Positions 1-46,557 of a DNA stretch of 64,000 nucleotides are shown here, piece after piece (the stretch's first letter is position 1; each line of letters starts with the position of its first letter). The DNA is from a virus (taxonomy: Duplodnaviria > Caudoviricetes), in the IMG/VR virus record IMGVR_UViG_3300010429_001449; one strand, 5' to 3'. The translations under genes were made by a program, and so were the position numbers. Below the pieces are notes generated by a model. It had not been told where the DNA came from, did not search any database, and saw only the letters and a program-made list of their open reading frames with translations.

Positions 1-115
1 GAAATGACCGCGACGTTCAGAGTATTAGTCTGTTGCCTAGCTATTAGGCTACGTTTCCTTTGGTGGAAATGATGGGAGTTGCACCCATAATGTAGTCGCA
101 ATCGGCATTCAGCCC
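1..115 (-). ncRNA. Y-RNA-like (YrlA-like) RNA with circularly permuted tRNA domain; 3' end runs off window
   Basis: Minus strand: GGGCUGAAUGCC-GAUUGCGAC-UACAU, T arm AUGGG/UGCAACU/CCCAU (72-88), closed acceptor stem CAUUUCC-ACCAAA-GGAAACG (52-71), D arm GCCU/AAUAGCU/AGGC (35-49), anticodon-like arm CAGA/CUAAUAC/UCUG, then AAC-GUCGCGGUC pairing with GAUUGCGAC. Lies just downstream of the Ro60 gene behind its own promoter and boxA. Confidence 0.8.
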
Positions 116-504: not shown

Positions 505-2277
505 TTACTCGGACGCTTCTTCTGCTTCATCGGGCGCTGCGTCGCTTGCGCTCTTGCAAGCGGCGGCCAGATCGATGGCTTCGATCTCGCGCACCCACAC
601 GGATACGTCCTTCTCCGGCTTTGCCGTCGCCGTCTTCGTCTCCGTGCCCGGCTTTACGCCGTTGTTCAAGAAGTCGATGATGACCGACCATACAGCGTTG
701 GACCATCCGCCGATGTTCAGAATATCGGCGTCGCCTTCCGGAGCCTGCGTACTGTCGTTGGCCGCAAGGTCCAAACAGACCATCCGTGCGCCTGGACAAC
801 GCGACCGCAGCGCATTGAACTGCGCCATGAGTTCCGTGCCGCCATTACGCACGGTACGTCCCCTAGAATCAACCCACGACTCGTTGTCAGAAATGATGAC
901 AACGCGATTGATCTTCTGTTGCGCACGGTTGACCCGCGCCAGCGGAGCCGAAATGCACGTTCCGCCCCCACCGGCGTGTCGGATCGCATTAGTAAGCGTC
1001 AGAATCGAGTCCCTACGCTCCAACTTGACAGGAAGCACGTCGTTGGCGAACGGCATTACGGTCGATCCCATGTTCCTCTTGTAGAGGATGGCTGCCAGCA
1101 GCGAGGAAATGTCCGCGCACGTAGCCTTCGTCGTGGCCGAGCCACGGTAGCCGGTTACTGGCGCGTCCATCGATCCCGACAGGTCTGGCGCAATCAGCAG
1201 AGCGCCGTCGATGCCGATCATGTTGCTCGTTGCGAGGTCCATCGCGTCGTGCAGTGCGTCCCGAATAGCTTCCGGAACTTCGGTGTGGACGAAATCGTAA
1301 GCCGTCTTGATCTCGTACGGGAAGGGCTTGACCCTTTCCTGAATCTCCTCCTTGTCCCGGAGCTTCTCCGCGATGGCCTTGACAGCCTTCTCATTGCTGA
1401 ACACGCCTTGACGCTTGTACGTATTCAGATTCTTGAGGGTCTGTCTCCAGCCGCCGCGCAGCGCAAGCTGCCGCCAATGCTCTTCCTTCAGAGGAAGCGA
1501 CGACAGGAACTCCCAACGCACTCCCTTCGGAAGCGGGGCCGACTCACCCGCCAGCAATGCGGCCTTGAACGTCTCGTAGTCGCGGATGCACTTCGGCAGC
1601 TTGTCCCAGTCGGGAGCAAGCTCCGGGCGATTCGCGCAGAGCGCCTTGGCCTCACCGAGGGTGCGTGGGCACTTGCCGATCAAGTAGGCGAAGATAGCCC
1701 GTTCCTCTGCCGTGCGCGGCGTCGGGTGAACCATCTTGATTACGTCCGACAGGCTCACCGTGCCTTTGGCCGATCCACCGACAGAGTCGCCGAAAAGCTG
1801 ATCACCCGTGCGGCTCCGCAGCCAGTCACGAATGGCCTTCTTCGGAACCGCGCCAAGCGACTTCCGACCGACCGCACCGCTACGCATAATTTGCGTGAAG
1901 CCGAGCAGCATCTTGCCGTTCGTCACGACGCGACCGAAAGCGCGATTGAACCACGAACGACCGTCTGCGTCCCGCGAAGTCAGATGGGCAAGCAGGAGCG
2001 CCGGAGCGTCCTTCATTCCACCGTTTTCACGAGCGTACACAGCCGTCTTGGCAACGTATTCGGGCGTGTTGACCGCAGCCAGGGCCAGCATCTTGGCCAG
2101 TTCGTTTTCTCCGCTCTGATAGAACGTTCCGCCCTCCGGAAGCGTTCCAGTCATGGCGAACTGGGCGAGCGCGTGCTTGTCCGTGAACTTGTAAGCCACT
2201 CCCCCTGCTTCGTTGACCGTGTTGGTCGGAGGAGCCGTACGACCTCTCTGCGTCTTAAAAAGCTTCTTCGCTGGCAT
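505..2277 (-). CDS. rsr: Ro60/TROVE-domain RNA-binding protein with C-terminal vWA
   Basis: N-terminal NEAGGVAY...ALAQFAMTG...TFY, MKDAPALLLA, GRKSLG, DVIKMVHP, MIDAS DLSGSM, GGGGT, IISDNESW. Confidence 0.93.
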   Translation of the reverse strand: MPAKKLFKTQRGRTAPPTNTVNEAGGVAYKFTDKHALAQFAMTGTLPEGGTFYQSGENELAKMLALAAVNTPEYVAKTAVYARENGGMKDAPALLLAHLTSRDADGRSWFNRAFGRVVTNGKMLLGFTQIMRSGAVGRKSLGAVPKKAIRDWLRSRTGDQLFGDSVGGSAKGTVSLSDVIKMVHPTPRTAEERAIFAYLIGKCPRTLGEAKALCANRPELAPDWDKLPKCIRDYETFKAALLAGESAPLPKGVRWEFLSSLPLKEEHWRQLALRGGWRQTLKNLNTYKRQGVFSNEKAVKAIAEKLRDKEEIQERVKPFPYEIKTAYDFVHTEVPEAIRDALHDAMDLATSNMIGIDGALLIAPDLSGSMDAPVTGYRGSATTKATCADISSLLAAILYKRNMGSTVMPFANDVLPVKLERRDSILTLTNAIRHAGGGGTCISAPLARVNRAQQKINRVVIISDNESWVDSRGRTVRNGGTELMAQFNALRSRCPGARMVCLDLAANDSTQAPEGDADILNIGGWSNAVWSVIIDFLNNGVKPGTETKTATAKPEKDVSVWVREIEAIDLAAACKSASDAAPDEAEEASE

Positions 2278-22012: not shown

Positions 22013-22389
22013 TGGTGGACGCGGGGGGCATTGCAACCCCCGTCCAGAAATGGTTCCTTCTGCGCTTGCTACATGTTTAGCTGGCCTATTGTGTCTCGCG
22101 CTAAGAACCCCGGCCAGCGGGGTTTCCTTCGCGCCATCTCTAAAGCTTTAGCCCTTACGCCCAAGAGAACTGACGTAAGACCGATCCCGCTAGTTGACGC
22201 CTGCAAACAGACGCGGGCTTCCGCAAGCAGACGTGTTGCCTCTTGTTAGGCAGCAAGCCCAACCGCTTCGCGGCTGGGGAATTGCACGATGTTATCGGCA
22301 CTTGTGTTTTGTCAGGCGTTTTACGAGATTCCTGGCGATCTCGACATGCAACACAGACATCTTCCATCCTGTCGATTCTTGTCGCGCCC
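22013..22389 (-). ncRNA. ssrA: tmRNA, tag (A)ADNIVQFPSREAVGLAA*
   Basis: GGGCGCG/CGCGTCC-ACCA acceptor with G3:U70, 5' GAATCGAC motif, T arm, tag ORF 22246-22299 ending LAA-stop. Confidence 0.93.
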
Positions 22390-23196: not shown

Positions 23197-24168
23197 TCAA
23201 AGCAGAGGGGGAACCTGTTCGGTGTCGCCCATGCGAAATACCTTAATCACTTCATCCGTCTTTATAGCGTTCCACGCCTTGACCAGCAGGCCGAAAAGGT
23301 ATCCGGGCGTGTGCTTGGTGGTAGAACGATACTGCTTCAACAGTTTGGTGTTCAGTTCGGCCAGATTAGGCAGCATTCTGCCGAGAGAGCTACTGTAGCC
23401 GCCGGTCTTGAATGCGGCCTCGAAGAAAGGATCAACAAGATCGCTGTCTTTTTCTTTGGCCAGAAAGTGAAAAGCCACTACCCACGCTCTGGGCAGACCT
23501 TTCACTATAGATTCGTAGGGTTGCGCTCTAACCAGGCTGTCCGTGAGGCTGGCGTCATTCTCTTTCACGAATTGGCGAAGCTCTAAGTTCGACACGTCGC
23601 CTTTGGAGTAGCTGGAATTCGCGTAAATGCGCTTCATATTAAACACTTGGATAACTCGCGCCGCCGCGCTCTTGTCGGTTCCGCGCTTGATTTCATCCAG
23701 CAGATTCAGGTTGTCTCCTGCAGTTCTGGCTTTGCCACTATCAAGAACAGACAAAGCGGCTTCGTCTGCGCGGCATCCATCAATCACCGTGTCGTTGTAC
23801 TGAAAAACAAGAAAGACACACGTAGCCCCAGTTTTCTTTAATGCCACCAAGCGATGCTGACCATTACGCACCCGTCCAGCGGCATCGATGATGATAGCAT
23901 CTGGAAGCAAGGGCCACTGCTTGTTAAGCATGTCCCTGCTGTACATATTAACACGATACGGACTAATATTCCGGTTTCGACCCGTCGCACCCAAATAGTA
24001 ATCGACATTATGAGGTCCGATAGCCACCAACGAAACTGTAAACGGTAACTTGAGTCCGTCAGGAACTTTCAGACTCTGCGGACCACGCACAATAAATTGA
24101 GCAATGAATTCGTCCTGCGACAACGTGTACTGCGGAACAACACCAGTATCCATCTTCTGATCGTCCAT
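23197..24168 (-). CDS. ParB/Srx-like N-terminal domain protein
   Basis: NRNIS...YSRDM...W...IIIDAAG...NGQHRLVAL...LDSGKART. Confidence 0.7.
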   Translation of the reverse strand: MDDQKMDTGVVPQYTLSQDEFIAQFIVRGPQSLKVPDGLKLPFTVSLVAIGPHNVDYYLGATGRNRNISPYRVNMYSRDMLNKQWPLLPDAIIIDAAGRVRNGQHRLVALKKTGATCVFLVFQYNDTVIDGCRADEAALSVLDSGKARTAGDNLNLLDEIKRGTDKSAAARVIQVFNMKRIYANSSYSKGDVSNLELRQFVKENDASLTDSLVRAQPYESIVKGLPRAWVVAFHFLAKEKDSDLVDPFFEAAFKTGGYSSSLGRMLPNLAELNTKLLKQYRSTTKHTPGYLFGLLVKAWNAIKTDEVIKVFRMGDTEQVPPLL

Positions 24169-24233
24169 CACACAACTCCTGTAAAAACTACGAAAAAGCA
24201 TCGCTACAACAGCGACGTAACACCGCAACGAAA

Positions 24234-24311
24234 TGGTCGGGGTGGCCGAAATCGAATCGGCGGCCTCCAGTACCCCAAACTGGCGCTCTAACCAGACTGA
24301 GCTACACCCCG
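24234..24311 (-). tRNA. tRNA-Pro(GGG)
   Basis: CCAGT-TTGGGGT-ACTGG, C1:G72, encoded CCA. Confidence 0.9.
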
Positions 24312-24319
24312 GAAGAAAG

Positions 24320-24397
24320 TGGTCGGAGTGGCGGGACTTGAACCCGCGACCTCGTGGTCCCGAACCACGCGCTCTACACAGGCTGAGCTACACTCCG
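24320..24397 (-). tRNA. tRNA-Pro(CGG)
   Basis: CGTGG-TTCGGGA-CCACG, encoded CCA. Confidence 0.9.
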
Positions 24398-24408: not shown

Positions 24409-24490
24409 TGGCCGACGAGGGTGTAGAGAGGTTTGTTTTGGCGCTCCCTTGCGGGGGCAGGTAACATGTACTCCCTACGGCATTCGGCCA
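24409..24490 (-). ncRNA. short Y-RNA-like RNA (copy 2)
   Basis: UGGCCGA-AUGCC-GUAGGGAG-UACAU...AAAC-CUCUCUAC-ACCCUCG-UCGGCCA; GNCGAANG motif. Confidence 0.7.
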
Positions 24491-24495
24491 AAAGA

Positions 24496-24575
24496 TGGTC
24501 GGAGCGGCGGGAATCGAACCCGCGAAAACCTCTCGGTCCCAAGCCGAGCGCTCTACCAAGCTGAGCTACGCTCCG
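24496..24575 (-). tRNA. tRNA-Pro(TGG)
   Basis: CTCGG-CTTGGGA-CCGAG, encoded CCA. Confidence 0.9.
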
Positions 24576-24579
24576 TTTG

Positions 24580-24850
24580 CTTACAAAGACCGGCGCGGCA
24601 ACGCCGGTCTCCGTGGAAAGGATTCCAATGTCCAAACAGACGGCGGCGCGTTACAAAGCCACACGCCGTGGGCAAAACGTCATGCGCCGCCTCGAAAGAC
24701 GGCGCAGGTACTCCTTCCACACGTGGTGGATGAGCAAAGAGTTATAACGCACAGCAACCGTGTTGATCAAGCACGGCGGCACGTACTCTTGTGCGCCGGA
24801 ACTACCTCTCGACATTCGACTGCCGCCGGTACGCGCTTGTCGAGAGACGC
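24580..24850 (-). ncRNA. putative structured ncRNA
   Basis: Run of hairpins including a UUCG-capped one; no credible ORF; between tRNA genes. Confidence 0.4.
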
Positions 24851-24857
24851 TGTTGAC

Positions 24858-24934
24858 TGGTCGGGACAGTACGGAGTCGAACCGTTAATTTCCGAGCCTC
24901 GCGGTCGGCGTACTGCCGTTGTACTATCGTCCCG
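24858..24934 (-). ncRNA. atypical tRNA-like RNA (Pro-type acceptor, no canonical anticodon loop)
   Basis: CGGGACGA/CUGUCCCG-ACCA, D arm GUAC/GUAC, T loop UUCGACU, anticodon arm capped CC-GCGA-GG. Confidence 0.65.
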
Positions 24935-24943
24935 AAAGAGAAC

Positions 24944-25018
24944 TGAGTCGACGAGGATCGCAAGAGACGTTTGGTAGTCCACAACGGGGCATGTAGTCCC
25001 TCGCTGGCATTCGACTCA
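24944..25018 (-). ncRNA. short Y-RNA-like RNA (copy 3)
   Basis: UGAGUCGA-AUGCCA-GCGAGGGAC-UACAU...AAAC-GUCUCUUGC-GAUCCUCG-UCGACUCA. Confidence 0.7.
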
Positions 25019-25023
25019 AAAAC

Positions 25024-25198
25024 TGGTCGGACGAGGAAGGATTCTACCTTCATCTTCCGGGCGCAGAGCTATGGGTACGCTCGGCTGTTCTAGTTGAACT
25101 ACTACTGAGACACCTCCGAGAGTCGGTATTGAGACGCCTGCCCAAAGCAGGCATCTCAACCATTTACTCTACCGGGCTACGTCTCATTGGGTCGTCCG
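25024..25198 (-). ncRNA. 175-nt tRNA-like RNA with ~87-nt hairpin insertion
   Basis: CGGACGA/UCGUCCG-ACCA, UA-GUUC/GAAC D arm, GAAGG/CCUUC T arm; long inserted stem. Confidence 0.65.
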
Positions 25199-25228: not shown

Positions 25229-25256
25229 AGTATAACGGAGATACGCATAATGTCAA
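25229..25256 (-). promoter_or_regulatory. sigma70-type promoter
   Basis: TTGACA-16bp-TATACT. Confidence 0.85.
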
Positions 25257-45207: not shown

Positions 45208-46557
45208 CTAGTAAAGCTCTCCTCGCATCTGAAGGGTCACGTCAATGAGCCGCTCCAGAAGGAAATTCTGGAACGAGCGCGTCTTGTCCGTCGCGTGAGA
45301 GAGGCCGTGGCCGTACTCTTCCGCCAACGTTTCTGCCACTTCACGGACGCCCTTCGGGAAAACGCTCTTGCTGAGGCCAACAACCTTCAACGACTCGAAG
45401 TAACGGCCCAGCGTGAGATCGTCCTTCTCCCTGTAAATGCGAACCGGGAATCGATCCACGGTGTCCTGACCCAGTGCCGTCGCGCAAATGGCCTTGGCGA
45501 CTTCAACGACCTGTCGCTCGCGCTCCGTCCATTCGGATTCTTCGATGAAACGGATGCCTTCGCAGGCGTGCTCGCCGACGACCTCTTCTACCGTCGGAAC
45601 GCCCGCCTTTTTCAAAGCGGTGCGCCACTTGTCGGAACGGACAACGACCGGCTTCTTCCGAACTTCAAGCGCGGACTCCACCGCGTTGTTGTTGTCCATA
45701 CAGATGACGGCTTCCTCGCCGTATCGCTTGTGGAACGCCTTCGTCCACGCAGCGTCCATCGAGTACCACGACCAGTCCAAGTCGCCCTCGGCCTTCCCTT
45801 CAAACGCGCCGTCCATAAGCAGGCCAAGCAACTGTTCGGCAGTCGCCTCGTCGGTCTGAGCGAAAACATAACGAATCTGATGGCGAACCTCCCACGTGTC
45901 CGCCGTGCGCGTTTCGCTGAGGCGGAGATTGTACAGGTCGTAATTGAAGTAAAGGTCGTCCATCTCCTGCACGAATACGCCGCGCCGATAGACGCGCCCT
46001 TTGCCCTCGGCCTTACCAAGAATCCGCCCCTGCGAAGAATCGGAAGGATCGTAGGGACGGAAGTAGTCGCCAAGATTCTTGACGATCTTGACAAGATCGG
46101 GAGACGCCGTAATCCAGAAACGAGTCGTGCCGGGCACGCCGGTCGGCTTGTCATGCACGATGGCGATGCCCGCCCCACCCTCGTCAAGGGCGTTGGCGTA
46201 GAACTCGCGGATGATGAACCACGGATTTGTCCAGTGCTGTGCGCCAAACTGATCCGTCAGGCTCAGGCGTACCAGCTTCGGCGGCTTGCCGGGAACCTTC
46301 GCGCTGTACGCAATCCTGTTGAAGTCGCCGCGCTCGGTCTTCTCCACGACCGTCTTGAACTCGAAAGAGCTTTCGCCAGAGAAAGCAACGACCTGCAGCC
46401 CCAAACGCATCGCCTGCGCCAGAGCATAGTCGCTGCCGGACCCGAAGACGCCAATCTTGCCGTCCTCGCCTGTCTTCGAGGTCGCGCCAATCATCTCCAA
46501 CAGCCGAACGTCAACTTCACCTGCGTTTTCGATCCTAATCCATTTGCCGTTGCGCAT
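45208..46557 (-). CDS. GHKL-related ATPase-like protein with C-terminal EExxH
   Basis: GATSK...IGVFGSG, REFYANALDE, EEYGH. Confidence 0.65.
   Translation of the reverse strand: MRNGKWIRIENAGEVDVRLLEMIGATSKTGEDGKIGVFGSGSDYALAQAMRLGLQVVAFSGESSFEFKTVVEKTERGDFNRIAYSAKVPGKPPKLVRLSLTDQFGAQHWTNPWFIIREFYANALDEGGAGIAIVHDKPTGVPGTTRFWITASPDLVKIVKNLGDYFRPYDPSDSSQGRILGKAEGKGRVYRRGVFVQEMDDLYFNYDLYNLRLSETRTADTWEVRHQIRYVFAQTDEATAEQLLGLLMDGAFEGKAEGDLDWSWYSMDAAWTKAFHKRYGEEAVICMDNNNAVESALEVRKKPVVVRSDKWRTALKKAGVPTVEEVVGEHACEGIRFIEESEWTERERQVVEVAKAICATALGQDTVDRFPVRIYREKDDLTLGRYFESLKVVGLSKSVFPKGVREVAETLAEEYGHGLSHATDKTRSFQNFLLERLIDVTLQMRGELY

What the first reader, a model, noticed from the sequence alone, without database searches (positions are those of the whole stretch)
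24409..25018. Two more Y-like RNAs hidden in the tRNA-Pro array, 24 kb from rsr: a modular RNA family
Seen: 24409-24490 and 24944-25018 share a scaffold with the RNA at 1-115: P1 ending GNYGA, loop AUGCC, 8-9 bp P2, UACAU, variable domain, AAC, P2', a pyrimidine-rich linker (CCUCG in both short copies, AUUUC at the window edge), P1'. P1 and P2 sequences differ between copies but pairing is kept (GUAGGGAG/CUCUCUAC, GCGAGGGAC/GUCUCUUGC, GAUUGCGAC/GUCGCGGUC), which is internal covariation. GCCGAAUG and GUCGAAUG match the GNCGAAN(0-1)G motif described for bacterial Y RNAs. Inference: one Ro60 is programmed by several interchangeable RNAs with different distal domains, released from tRNA polycistrons by tRNA processing.
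Basis: partly seen in the sequence, partly recalled or inferred. Interest (0 to 1): 0.88.

Follow-up and report, generated by a model that had tools for sequence, protein, structure and literature searches.

The report
Mini Y RNAs inside phage tRNA operon
Two small RNA genes between the tRNA genes of a giant uncultured phage are short versions of Y RNAs, the partner RNAs of the ring protein Ro60 that the phage encodes 22 kb away, and the same tRNA/Y-RNA interleaving recurs in related phages, including the cultured Myxococcus phage Mx1.

Summary
On the minus strand, 24409-24490 (A, 82 nt) and 24945-25017 (B, 73 nt) carry the full scaffold P1 / GAAUGC / P2 / UACAU / variable domain / P2' / CCUCG / P1'. 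A covariance model built without A or B finds exactly these two in the 64-kb window (47.9 and 44.6 bits, E about 1e-10).

They share this scaffold with eight tandem Y-like RNAs downstream of the phage Ro60 gene (505-2277, minus strand). The scaffold corresponds to the Ro60-docking stem of the known YrlA Y RNAs. A and B lack the tRNA-like domain, so they resemble the small YrlB/Yrn2 type more than YrlA.

The family has 55 members in 17 loci, all on the Ro60 strand, and all 14 base pairs show compensatory changes. Half of 64 units abut a tRNA gene within 16 nt, against 1.5% for random placement. One complete 170-kb phage keeps all four detected copies in its tRNA array, about 82 kb from Ro60. 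Hits occurred in 10 of 10 Ro60-encoding records and 0 of 25 without Ro60.

Ro60 binding and release by tRNA-processing enzymes are inferred, not shown. Several Y RNAs per Ro60 is established knowledge; the tRNA-operon setting far from Ro60 is the new variant. This scan has noted tRNA-interleaved phage Y RNAs before, on other DNA.

The parts
24409..24490 (-). Mini Y-like RNA A (82 nt). P1 is UGGCCGA/UCGGCCA, the 5' internal loop is AUGCC, P2 is GUAGGGAG/CUCUCUAC, followed by UACAU. The distal domain is a hairpin with a GCAA loop, and the 3' loop is ACCCUCG.
   Evidence: Sequence. Model R1: 47.9 bits, E 6.5e-11. Rfam YrlA: end-to-end stem match at 18.9 bits. Fold z = -3.5.
24945..25017 (-). Mini Y-like RNA B (73 nt). 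P1 is GAGUCGA/UCGACUC, the 5' loop is AUGCCA, P2 is GCGAGGGAC/GUCUCUUGC, followed by UACAU. The distal domain is 22 nt and the 3' loop is GAUCCUCG.
   Evidence: Sequence. Model R1: 44.6 bits, E 5.4e-10. Fold z = -2.2.
25229..25256 (-). Sigma-70-type promoter (TTGACA, 16 nt, TATACT) at the head of the small-RNA unit. It has the same form as the promoters of the Y RNA operon and of tRNA-Arg in L001.
   Evidence: Promoter scan, 11 of 12 positions matched. Similar promoters read in L001.
25024..25198 (-). Large tRNA-like RNA (about 175 nt) with a 7-bp acceptor stem, a T-arm-like hairpin, a 3' ACCA and a large internal insert. It is the first gene of the unit, and B starts 6 nt after its ACCA.
   Evidence: Fold z = -4.3. 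Partial Rfam tRNA match to the 3' half. ARAGORN does not call it.
24858..24934 (-). tRNA-Ser(cga), which starts 10 nt after the end of B.
   Evidence: ARAGORN.
24576..24857 (-). A 282-nt structured spacer between tRNA-Ser and tRNA-Pro(tgg). It is not a member of the Y-like family.
   Evidence: Fold of the second half, z = -4.3. No R1 match with filters off.
24496..24575 (-). tRNA-Pro(tgg) with an encoded CCA. A starts 5 nt after it.
   Evidence: ARAGORN and Rfam.
24320..24397 (-). tRNA-Pro(cgg), which starts 11 nt after the end of A.
   Evidence: ARAGORN and Rfam.
24234..24311 (-). tRNA-Pro(ggg), the last gene of the unit.
   Evidence: ARAGORN and Rfam.
24199..24217 (-). Terminator-like hairpin followed by a U-rich tail, closing the unit of about 1 kb.
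   Evidence: Terminator scan. This is a consensus match only.
505..2277 (-). Ro60 (Rsr/TROVE plus vWA) gene, 590 aa, the presumed protein partner.
   Evidence: Pfam vWA_Ro60, E 5.7e-14. PDB sequence matches: phage phiLo Ro60 9L5Y/9KOP 4.5e-20, D. radiodurans Rsr 2NVO 7.5e-16, human RO60 9NEN 3.9e-9.
1..115 (-). First Y-like RNA of the eight-gene Y RNA operon downstream of Ro60, cut by the window edge. It carries a tRNA-like distal domain.
   Evidence: Sequence. Full operon read on L001:12163-13336. Rfam tRNA partial match.

Best explanation
A and B are genuine small Y RNAs of the phage. They keep the terminal stem / internal loop / stem module that docks Y RNAs onto Ro60, but carry only a short distal hairpin in place of the tRNA-like domain.

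They are transcribed from a sigma-70-type promoter as part of a polycistronic precursor of about 1 kb: tRNA-like RNA, B, tRNA-Ser, spacer, tRNA-Pro, A, tRNA-Pro, tRNA-Pro, terminator. The enzymes that mature the neighbouring tRNAs probably cut them out. RNase P at the 5' end of the downstream tRNA would set the Y RNA's 3' side. Cleavage and trimming at the upstream tRNA's CCA end would set its 5' side.

The released RNAs would then bind the phage Ro60 encoded 22 kb away, alongside the eight operon Y RNAs. Without a tRNA-like effector module they most likely act as gate-type or competitor Y RNAs, occupying Ro60 without recruiting the tRNA-module partner, or they present a different small effector loop.

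What is shown:
- Family membership of A and B.
- Homology of the shared module to the YrlA stem.
- Covariation of both stems.
- Co-occurrence of the family with Ro60 genes.
- The embedding of family members in tRNA operons, and its recurrence across related phages.

What is inferred:
- Transcription of the unit as described.
- Processing by tRNA-maturation enzymes.
- Binding to Ro60.
- The gate or competitor role.
For: 1. Family membership. Model R1 was built from 11 minis (ten from other phage contigs, one from this phage's operon, none being A or B). It finds A and B at E about 1e-10 and nothing else in the tRNA region, even with filters off. Their scores (47.9 and 44.6 bits) are near the top of the range of the seven operon copies that R1 detected (27.5-50.3 bits), so they are not decayed copies.

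2. Link to Y RNAs.
- Rfam YrlA aligns the stem of A end to end (CGAAUGC...GGGAGUA // CUCUCUAC...CUCGUCGGCC).
- Rfam YrlA hits operon copies at 52.4, 35 and 21.7 bits.
- It also hits the tRNA-array unit of Myxococcus phage Mx1 at 32 bits over the full model length.
- The GNCGAAN0-1G motif is the proposed Rsr-recognition element (PMC4201824).

3. Structure under selection. Across 55 family members, all 14 pairs show double (compensatory) changes. 92.9% of cells pair, against 61% in shuffles and at most 59% when the partner columns are slid. None of 500 shuffles reached the observed values.

4. Ro60 is real, and all 55 units lie on the Ro60 strand of their loci.

5. Co-occurrence. R1 hits in 10 of 10 Ro60-encoding records. 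It hits 0 of 5 records with a related CCA-adding enzyme but no Ro60, and 0 of 20 unrelated viral contigs without a TROVE domain.

6. tRNA co-transcription.
- Promoter 25256-25229 and terminator-like hairpin 24217-24199 bracket the unit.
- Gaps between A or B and the neighbouring tRNA ends are 5-11 nt.
- Of 64 units in 18 sources (17 loci and the window), 32 have a same-strand tRNA within 16 nt, against 1.5% for random placement; 15 are flanked on both sides.
- A Y unit directly after tRNA-Pro(tgg) recurs in the window, L025, L032 and L035.

7. Unlinked copies are normal in this group. G002 has units 19.5 and 25.5 kb from Ro60. The complete 170-kb genome G006 has all four detected units in its tRNA array, about 82 kb from Ro60.

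8. Precedent. A phage Ro60 (Thermus phage phiLo) binds two phage-encoded Y-like RNAs in vitro (PMC12135203). Small Y RNAs without a tRNA-like domain (YrlB, Yrn2) are bound by Rsr in three bacteria (PMC4201824).
Against: - There is no expression, end-mapping or binding data for any member of this phage family.
- Rfam YrlA scores are far below the gathering score of 69 bits. A reaches 18.9 bits with E 0.32 on a 681-nt search, and B gets no YrlA hit.
- The co-occurrence sample is small, and the Ro60-positive records are related to each other, so the 10 versus 0 of 25 contrast is not made of independent events.
- Several control records are fragments.
- Alignment A4 was fitted to the model, which inflates pairing somewhat. 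The slid-partner control argues that the effect is real.
- The promoter and terminator are consensus matches only. The number of terminator-like sites is no higher than in shuffles.
- The fold of B on its own is only moderately better than shuffles (z = -2.2).
Confidence: 0.72

Rival explanations
1. The elements act in cis on the tRNA precursor instead of as free Y RNAs. The conserved stem module is a landing pad, for Ro60 or for a nuclease, that steers maturation, quality control or stability of the neighbouring tRNAs. The excised piece would be only a by-product.
For: Half of the units abut tRNAs with gaps of -2 to 16 nt, and 15 are flanked on both sides. Gaps this small suggest coupling with tRNA end formation. 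In G006 all four detected units are in the tRNA array and none is near Ro60.
Against: The same scaffold also forms tRNA-free tandem operons: eight units after Ro60 in this phage, six in L031 and five in L034, where no tRNA is nearby. So the module does not need a tRNA neighbour. Its closest known relatives (YrlA, YrlB, Yrl1, Yrl2) are free Ro60-bound RNAs.
Confidence: 0.13
2. A and B are dispersed, decaying duplicates of operon Y RNAs that lost their tRNA-like domain. They are carried passively in the tRNA operon and no longer function.
For: They lack the distal tRNA-like domain found in seven of the eight operon copies. A resembles in its stems the 132-nt unit that follows tRNA-Pro(tgg) in L025, which fits a domain deletion.
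Against: Both keep perfect P1 and P2 helices and every conserved motif. They score near the top of the range of the operon copies. Minis of 95 nt or less are 35 of the 64 units across many phages, and their stems covary, so the short form is itself maintained by selection.
Confidence: 0.06
3. The family is a structured small RNA with a partner other than Ro60. Its co-occurrence with Ro60 would reflect shared ancestry of one phage clade and not a functional pairing.
For: The Ro60-positive records I tested are all relatives (Ro60 34-45% identical), so co-occurrence could be phylogenetic. Units can lie 82 kb from Ro60 and on the other strand of the contig.
Against: The conserved module matches the curated YrlA model on both strands of the stem, including the proposed Rsr-recognition motif. 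In this phage and several others the units sit directly beside the Ro60 gene.
Confidence: 0.07

Closest known systems
YrlA (Rfam RF02553), the tRNA-like Y RNA of bacteria and mycobacteriophages (Chen et al. 2014, PMC4201824; structure in bioRxiv 10.1101/312249)
   Same: It has a terminal stem with the GNCGAAN0-1G motif on the 5' strand (CGAAUGC), a second helix followed by a conserved UA, and CUYGUCG on the 3' strand. It lies on the same strand as Ro60. It has a modular design, with a docking stem plus a distal module.
   Different: A and B lack the T-arm and D-arm tRNA-like domain that defines YrlA. They score 18.9 bits (A) or nothing (B) against a gathering score of 69. They lie 22 kb from rsr, not within 4 kb, and they sit inside a tRNA operon. 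In mycobacteriophage ScottMcG the YrlA lies 190 nt upstream of Ro and is not next to tRNAs.
YrlB (Salmonella, M. smegmatis) and Yrn2 (D. radiodurans), the small second Y RNAs bound by Rsr (PMC4201824)
   Same: These are short Y RNAs that keep the Ro60-binding stem but lack a full tRNA-like module. They coexist with a larger tRNA-like Y RNA in the same genome.
   Different: The known ones are encoded next to rsr and processed from a Y RNA precursor, not from a tRNA polycistron. [quoted passage not shown] No sequence model of YrlB was available to test.
Yrl1 and Yrl2 of Thermus phage phiLo with phage Ro60 (PMC12135203; PDB 9KOP, 9L5Y)
   Same: This is a phage-encoded Ro60 with more than one phage-encoded Y-like RNA carrying a CGAA motif in a stem-bulge-stem. 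Binding was shown in vitro. Its Ro60 is the best PDB sequence match to this phage's Ro60.
   Different: Yrl1 and Yrl2 lie immediately upstream of the Ro60 gene. The paper describes no tRNA-array copies.
Stable small RNAs co-transcribed with tRNAs in the phage T4 tRNA cluster (species 1 and species 2 RNAs); from my own knowledge, not checked here
   Same: Small structured RNAs of unknown role, embedded in a phage tRNA operon and released by the tRNA-processing machinery.
   Different: I know of no link between these RNAs and Ro60 or the Y RNA stem.

Membership tests
YrlA (Rfam RF02553) | Score at or above the curated gathering score (69 bits) | tested here: not met
   A scores 18.9 bits (E 0.32 on 681 nt). 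B has no YrlA hit at E up to 10. The operon copies also stay below the cut-off, at 52.4, 35 and 21.7 bits.
YrlA (Rfam RF02553) | Ro60-binding terminal stem with the GNCGAAN0-1G motif | tested here: met
   A has GCCGAAUG and B has GUCGAAUG. The motif definition was read in PMC4201824. The Rfam alignment pairs both strands of A's stem with the model.
YrlA (Rfam RF02553) | Distal tRNA-like domain (T-arm and D-arm mimic) | tested here: not met
   The distal domains are only 35 nt (A) and 22 nt (B). The Rfam alignment skips the three inner helices, and no tRNA-model hit falls within A or B.
YrlA (Rfam RF02553) | Encoded within about 4 kb of the Ro60 gene on the same strand (the criterion used by Chen et al. 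2014) | tested here: not met
   A and B are on the same strand as Ro60 but 22.1 and 22.7 kb from the gene at 505-2277.
Y RNA (functional class: Ro60-bound small RNA) | 5' and 3' ends pair into a conserved stem / internal loop / stem that is kept by covariation | tested here: met
   All 14 pairs show compensatory changes. 92.9% of cells pair, against 61% in shuffles and at most 59% with slid partners.
Y RNA (functional class: Ro60-bound small RNA) | A Ro60 gene is present in the same genome and the family co-occurs with it | tested here: met
   Ro60 lies at 505-2277. R1 hits in 10 of 10 Ro60-encoding records and 0 of 25 without Ro60. The sample is small and the positive records are related.
Y RNA (functional class: Ro60-bound small RNA) | Physical binding to Ro60 and Ro60-dependent accumulation | not testable with these tools
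   This needs RIP, EMSA or Northern blots. The complex predictor offered here takes no RNA.
Phage Y-like RNA family defined here (model R1) | Significant full-length match to a model built without the candidates | tested here: met
   A: 47.9 bits, E 6.5e-11. B: 44.6 bits, E 5.4e-10. Both cover model positions 1-78 of 78.
YrlB / Yrn2-type small Y RNA | [quoted passage not shown] | tested here: inconclusive
   A and B are short and lack a tRNA-like domain. However, the distal loops are a GCAA-capped hairpin (A) and a weak hairpin (B), not clearly pyrimidine-rich. No YrlB model was at hand.

The most novel reading that the evidence does not exclude
In this clade of large phages, Y RNAs are built-in components of the tRNA arrays. 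In some complete genomes every detected Y RNA gene lies among the tRNAs, tens of kilobases from Ro60. That would mean the Ro60-Y RNA particle works on the phage's own tRNA supply, for example in quality control, repair or protection of tRNAs during infection. Domain-less minis such as A and B would act as gate-only regulators that tune how much Ro60 is free. It would also make tRNA arrays the place where new Y RNAs are born from tRNA genes.
Probability: 0.25. Interest if true: 0.8.

Novelty: new variant of a known kind. Interest (0 to 1): 0.62.

Why it matters
Bacterial and phage Y RNAs have so far been sought, and defined, as genes within a few kilobases of the Ro60 gene. This case shows that search rule misses members. 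Here, and in at least nine related phage records, Y-like RNAs are interleaved with tRNA genes, up to about 82 kb from Ro60.

Three consequences follow:
- The Y RNA repertoire of a single Ro60 reaches ten in this phage.
- Y RNA biogenesis becomes tied to tRNA processing.
- The proposal that Y RNAs evolved from tRNAs gains a concrete setting.

It also identifies a cultured system, Myxococcus phage Mx1 on M. xanthus, in which expression, processing and Ro60 binding can be tested directly. One Mx1 unit is currently annotated as a hypothetical protein gene.

Tried and rejected
- MAFFT alignments of the eight operon copies (A1) and of the three minis (A2) put P2 out of register, so I did not use them for a model.
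- An exact linear pattern scan of all viral contigs (GAATGC-N8-11-TACATG-N25-55-CCTCGTC) gave 21 hits. Only one (L011, on a Ro60-encoding contig) has the pairings. The rest are chance, including 14 copies of one prophage sequence. Linear patterns are therefore too weak for a collection-wide co-occurrence test.
- An exact 39-nt piece of A is absent from viral contigs.
- The octamer CGAATGCC alone is not over-represented in the window: 4 found, 3.2 expected.
- I looked for orthologous arrays through the neighbouring 343-aa ORF and found no relatives in viral or metagenome contigs. I could therefore not compare A and B with close orthologues.
- Megablast of the region against cultured phages found no match.
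- No whole genome is held for the window.
- The 282-nt spacer contains GUCGAAUG, but it is not a family member.
- R1 finds nothing around the Ro genes of a mycobacteriophage and a Streptomyces phage, so the model is specific to this clade.
- Two review papers on bacterial Y RNAs were not held.
- I did not run a complex prediction, because RNA chains cannot be given to that tool.

Full report
**Context.** All genes of the window run on the minus strand. It carries 13 tRNA genes and a tmRNA, a CCA-adding enzyme and DNA methylases, and a 590-aa Ro60 gene at 505-2277. The Ro60 identification rests on a Pfam vWA_Ro60 hit (E 5.7e-14) and on PDB sequence matches: phage phiLo Ro60 at 4.5e-20, D. radiodurans Rsr at 7.5e-16, and human RO60 at 3.9e-9. 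No whole genome is held for the window. The same Ro60 protein is encoded on metagenome contigs of up to 124 kb. Earlier notes of this scan describe the source as a 269-kb uncultured phage from anaerobic digesters; I did not check that.

**The observation.**
- A (24490 to 24409): UGGCCGA, AUGCC, GUAGGGAG, UACAU, a 35-nt distal domain containing a GCAA-capped hairpin and ending in AAC, CUCUCUAC, ACCCUCG, UCGGCCA.
- B (25017 to 24945): GAGUCGA, AUGCCA, GCGAGGGAC, UACAU, a 22-nt distal domain ending in AAC, GUCUCUUGC, GAUCCUCG, UCGACUC.

Minimum-free-energy folds recover P1 and P2 in both, with z = -3.5 for A and -2.2 for B. The copy cut by the window edge (115 to 1) has the same 5' half. On contig L001 it completes as ...GUCGCGGUC-AUUUCUCG-UCAGCCC.

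**The family in this phage.** L001 shows what lies beyond the window edge. After the Ro60 stop codon come a terminator, a TTGACAT-N16-TTATACT promoter, eight tandem units with the same scaffold (L001:12163-13336) and a terminator. Seven of the eight carry large distal domains that are partly tRNA-like. The eighth is a 69-nt mini like A and B. Rfam's curated YrlA model hits three of these units at 52.4, 35 and 21.7 bits. It also aligns A end to end along both strands of the stem, skipping the inner tRNA-like helices, at 18.9 bits. All of these scores are below the gathering score of 69.

**An independent statistical test.** I first wrote a descriptor: GAATG[CT], 6-14 nt, [TC]ACA[TC], then YYTYGTY, with P1 pairing at 6 or more of 7 positions and a paired P2. 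It finds 2 units in the window against 1 in 300 dinucleotide shuffles. It finds 21 units in 334 kb around related Ro60 genes against 0 in 40 shuffles of that sequence. I then built covariance model R1 from 11 mini units, ten from other phage contigs and one from this phage's operon, not including A or B (A3). On the window, R1 returns A (24409-24490, 47.9 bits, E 6.5e-11), B (24945-25017, 44.6 bits, E 5.4e-10) and the truncated edge copy, and nothing else. With filters off over 20-26 kb it again returns only A and B.

**The family elsewhere.** Seventeen viral contigs encode Ro60 proteins 34-45% identical to this one. Across the window, L001 and 16 of these loci, R1 finds 55 units, all on the Ro60 strand. 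On the model-fitted alignment A4, all 14 pairs of P1 and P2 show compensatory double changes. 92.9% of cells pair, against 61% after shuffling and at most 59% when the partner columns are slid. None of 500 shuffles reached the observed values. Sizes run continuously from 58 to about 200 nt, and 35 of 64 units are 95 nt or shorter. The mini form is therefore a regular class, not a one-off.

**The tRNA setting.** A starts 5 nt after the encoded CCA of tRNA-Pro(tgg) and ends 11 nt before tRNA-Pro(cgg). B starts 6 nt after the ACCA of a 175-nt tRNA-like RNA and ends 10 nt before tRNA-Ser(cga). A promoter matching 11 of 12 positions at 25256-25229 and a terminator-like hairpin at 24217-24199 bracket a unit of about 1 kb. 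These are consensus matches only.

The arrangement recurs in relatives:
- Units abut same-strand tRNAs with gaps of -2 to 16 nt in L025, L026, L028, L032, L035, L036, L041, L042, L043 and L054.
- Overall, 32 of 64 units have a tRNA within 16 nt, against 1.5% for random placement, and 15 are flanked on both sides.
- A unit directly after tRNA-Pro(tgg) occurs in the window, L025, L032 and L035.
- The remaining units form tRNA-free tandem arrays (this phage's operon, L031, L034) or sit beside Ro60.

**Distance from Ro60.** Whole-record searches show that unlinked copies are normal in this group. The 320-kb contig G002 has units 19.5 and 25.5 kb from Ro60, inside a tRNA array. The complete 170-kb genome G006 has all four detected units in a tRNA array about 82 kb from Ro60, and none within 10 kb of it.

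The cultured Myxococcus phage Mx1 has a Ro60 38.8% identical to this one. It carries two units between tRNA-Glu, an unannotated tRNA, tRNA-Ile and tRNA-Asp, about 11 kb upstream of Ro60. One unit is also hit by Rfam YrlA (32 bits, full model length). The other is annotated as a hypothetical protein. The Mx1 genome paper mentions no such RNAs.

By contrast, the known YrlA of mycobacteriophage ScottMcG lies 190 nt upstream of Ro and is not next to tRNAs.

**Co-occurrence with Ro60.** R1 hits 10 of 10 Ro60-encoding records. It hits none of five records (366 kb in total, one of them complete) that encode a related CCA-adding enzyme but no Ro60. It hits none of 20 unrelated viral contigs that lack a TROVE domain.

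**Interpretation.** The best reading is that A and B are real small Y RNAs made from a tRNA polycistron. They dock on the phage Ro60 through the conserved stem module. Lacking a tRNA-like effector domain, they resemble the YrlB/Yrn2 class. Binding, accumulation and the processing route are inferred. The most serious rival is a cis role on the tRNA precursor. Against it stands the fact that the same module forms tRNA-free operons. A decay hypothesis is unlikely, given the intact stems, the high scores and the abundance of covarying minis.

**Novelty.** Multiple modular Y RNAs per Ro60, phage-encoded Y RNAs, and small Y RNAs without a tRNA domain are all published (PMC4201824, PMC12135203, bioRxiv 10.1101/312249). 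In four full-text searches I found no paper describing Y RNA genes embedded in tRNA operons far from Ro60. The library is incomplete, and two key reviews were not held. Earlier notes of this scan report the ten Y RNAs of this phage, and tRNA-interleaved phage Y RNAs on other DNA. I class the finding as a new variant of a known kind.

**Caveats.**
- E-values from the shortened model calibration are rough.
- Alignment A4 is fitted to the model.
- The whole-record search uses a loose first look that misses some units. It found 1 unit in G004, against 3 found by direct search of L036.
- tRNA boundaries are those of ARAGORN.

Noticed in passing
window 25024-25198 (-): A tRNA-like RNA of about 175 nt opens the small-RNA unit. 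It has a 7-bp acceptor stem, a T-arm-like hairpin and a 3' ACCA, with a large structured insert where the D and anticodon arms would be. Fold z = -4.3. ARAGORN does not call it. It may belong to the enlarged tRNA-mimic family noted elsewhere in this genome (e1-5466645).
   Followed up: partly
window 24576-24857 (-): A 282-nt spacer between tRNA-Ser and tRNA-Pro(tgg) is strongly structured (second half z = -4.3). It ends in a GC-rich hairpin followed by UCUUUGU. It contains GUCGAAUG but is not a Y-like family member. It is possibly another small RNA or an internal attenuator.
   Followed up: partly
L043 (Myxococcus phage Mx1, OR576727.2): There are three annotation gaps. The Y-like RNA at record 45521-45624 is annotated as hypothetical protein WNM70101.1. 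A tRNA at L043:385-458 is not annotated. A tmRNA at L043:1732-2109 (117.7 bits) is not annotated and overlaps the CDS called 'Hef-like endonuclease'.
   Followed up: partly
window 24168-24228 (-): The longest ORF 23197-24228 starts at a TTG that overlaps the terminator-like hairpin 24199-24217. The true start is more likely the ATG near 24170, which is preceded by GGAG.
   Followed up: no
L054 (G006:C1:16000-30000) and L033: In a complete 170-kb DTR phage genome, all four detected Y-like RNAs lie in the tRNA array. They are about 82 kb from the Ro60 gene and on the opposite strand of the contig.
   Followed up: yes
L030:9650-9730 (+): ARAGORN calls a tRNA with anticodon CUA (labelled Pyl, that is, amber-reading) 55 nt upstream of two mini Y-like RNAs and the Ro60 gene of a 320-kb phage contig. 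It could be a suppressor tRNA or a sign of stop-codon reassignment.
   Followed up: no
window 22013-22389 (-) and L032, L042: The tmRNA genes sit inside the same tRNA arrays that hold Y-like RNAs, both in this phage and in relatives. The arrays therefore bundle several tRNA-shaped RNAs.
   Followed up: no
L001:11930-11960 and L001:13390-13425; window 25229-25256: The three small-RNA units of this phage share one promoter form, (C)TTGACAT-N16-TTATACTA. This suggests co-regulated transcription by the host sigma-70 holoenzyme.
   Followed up: no
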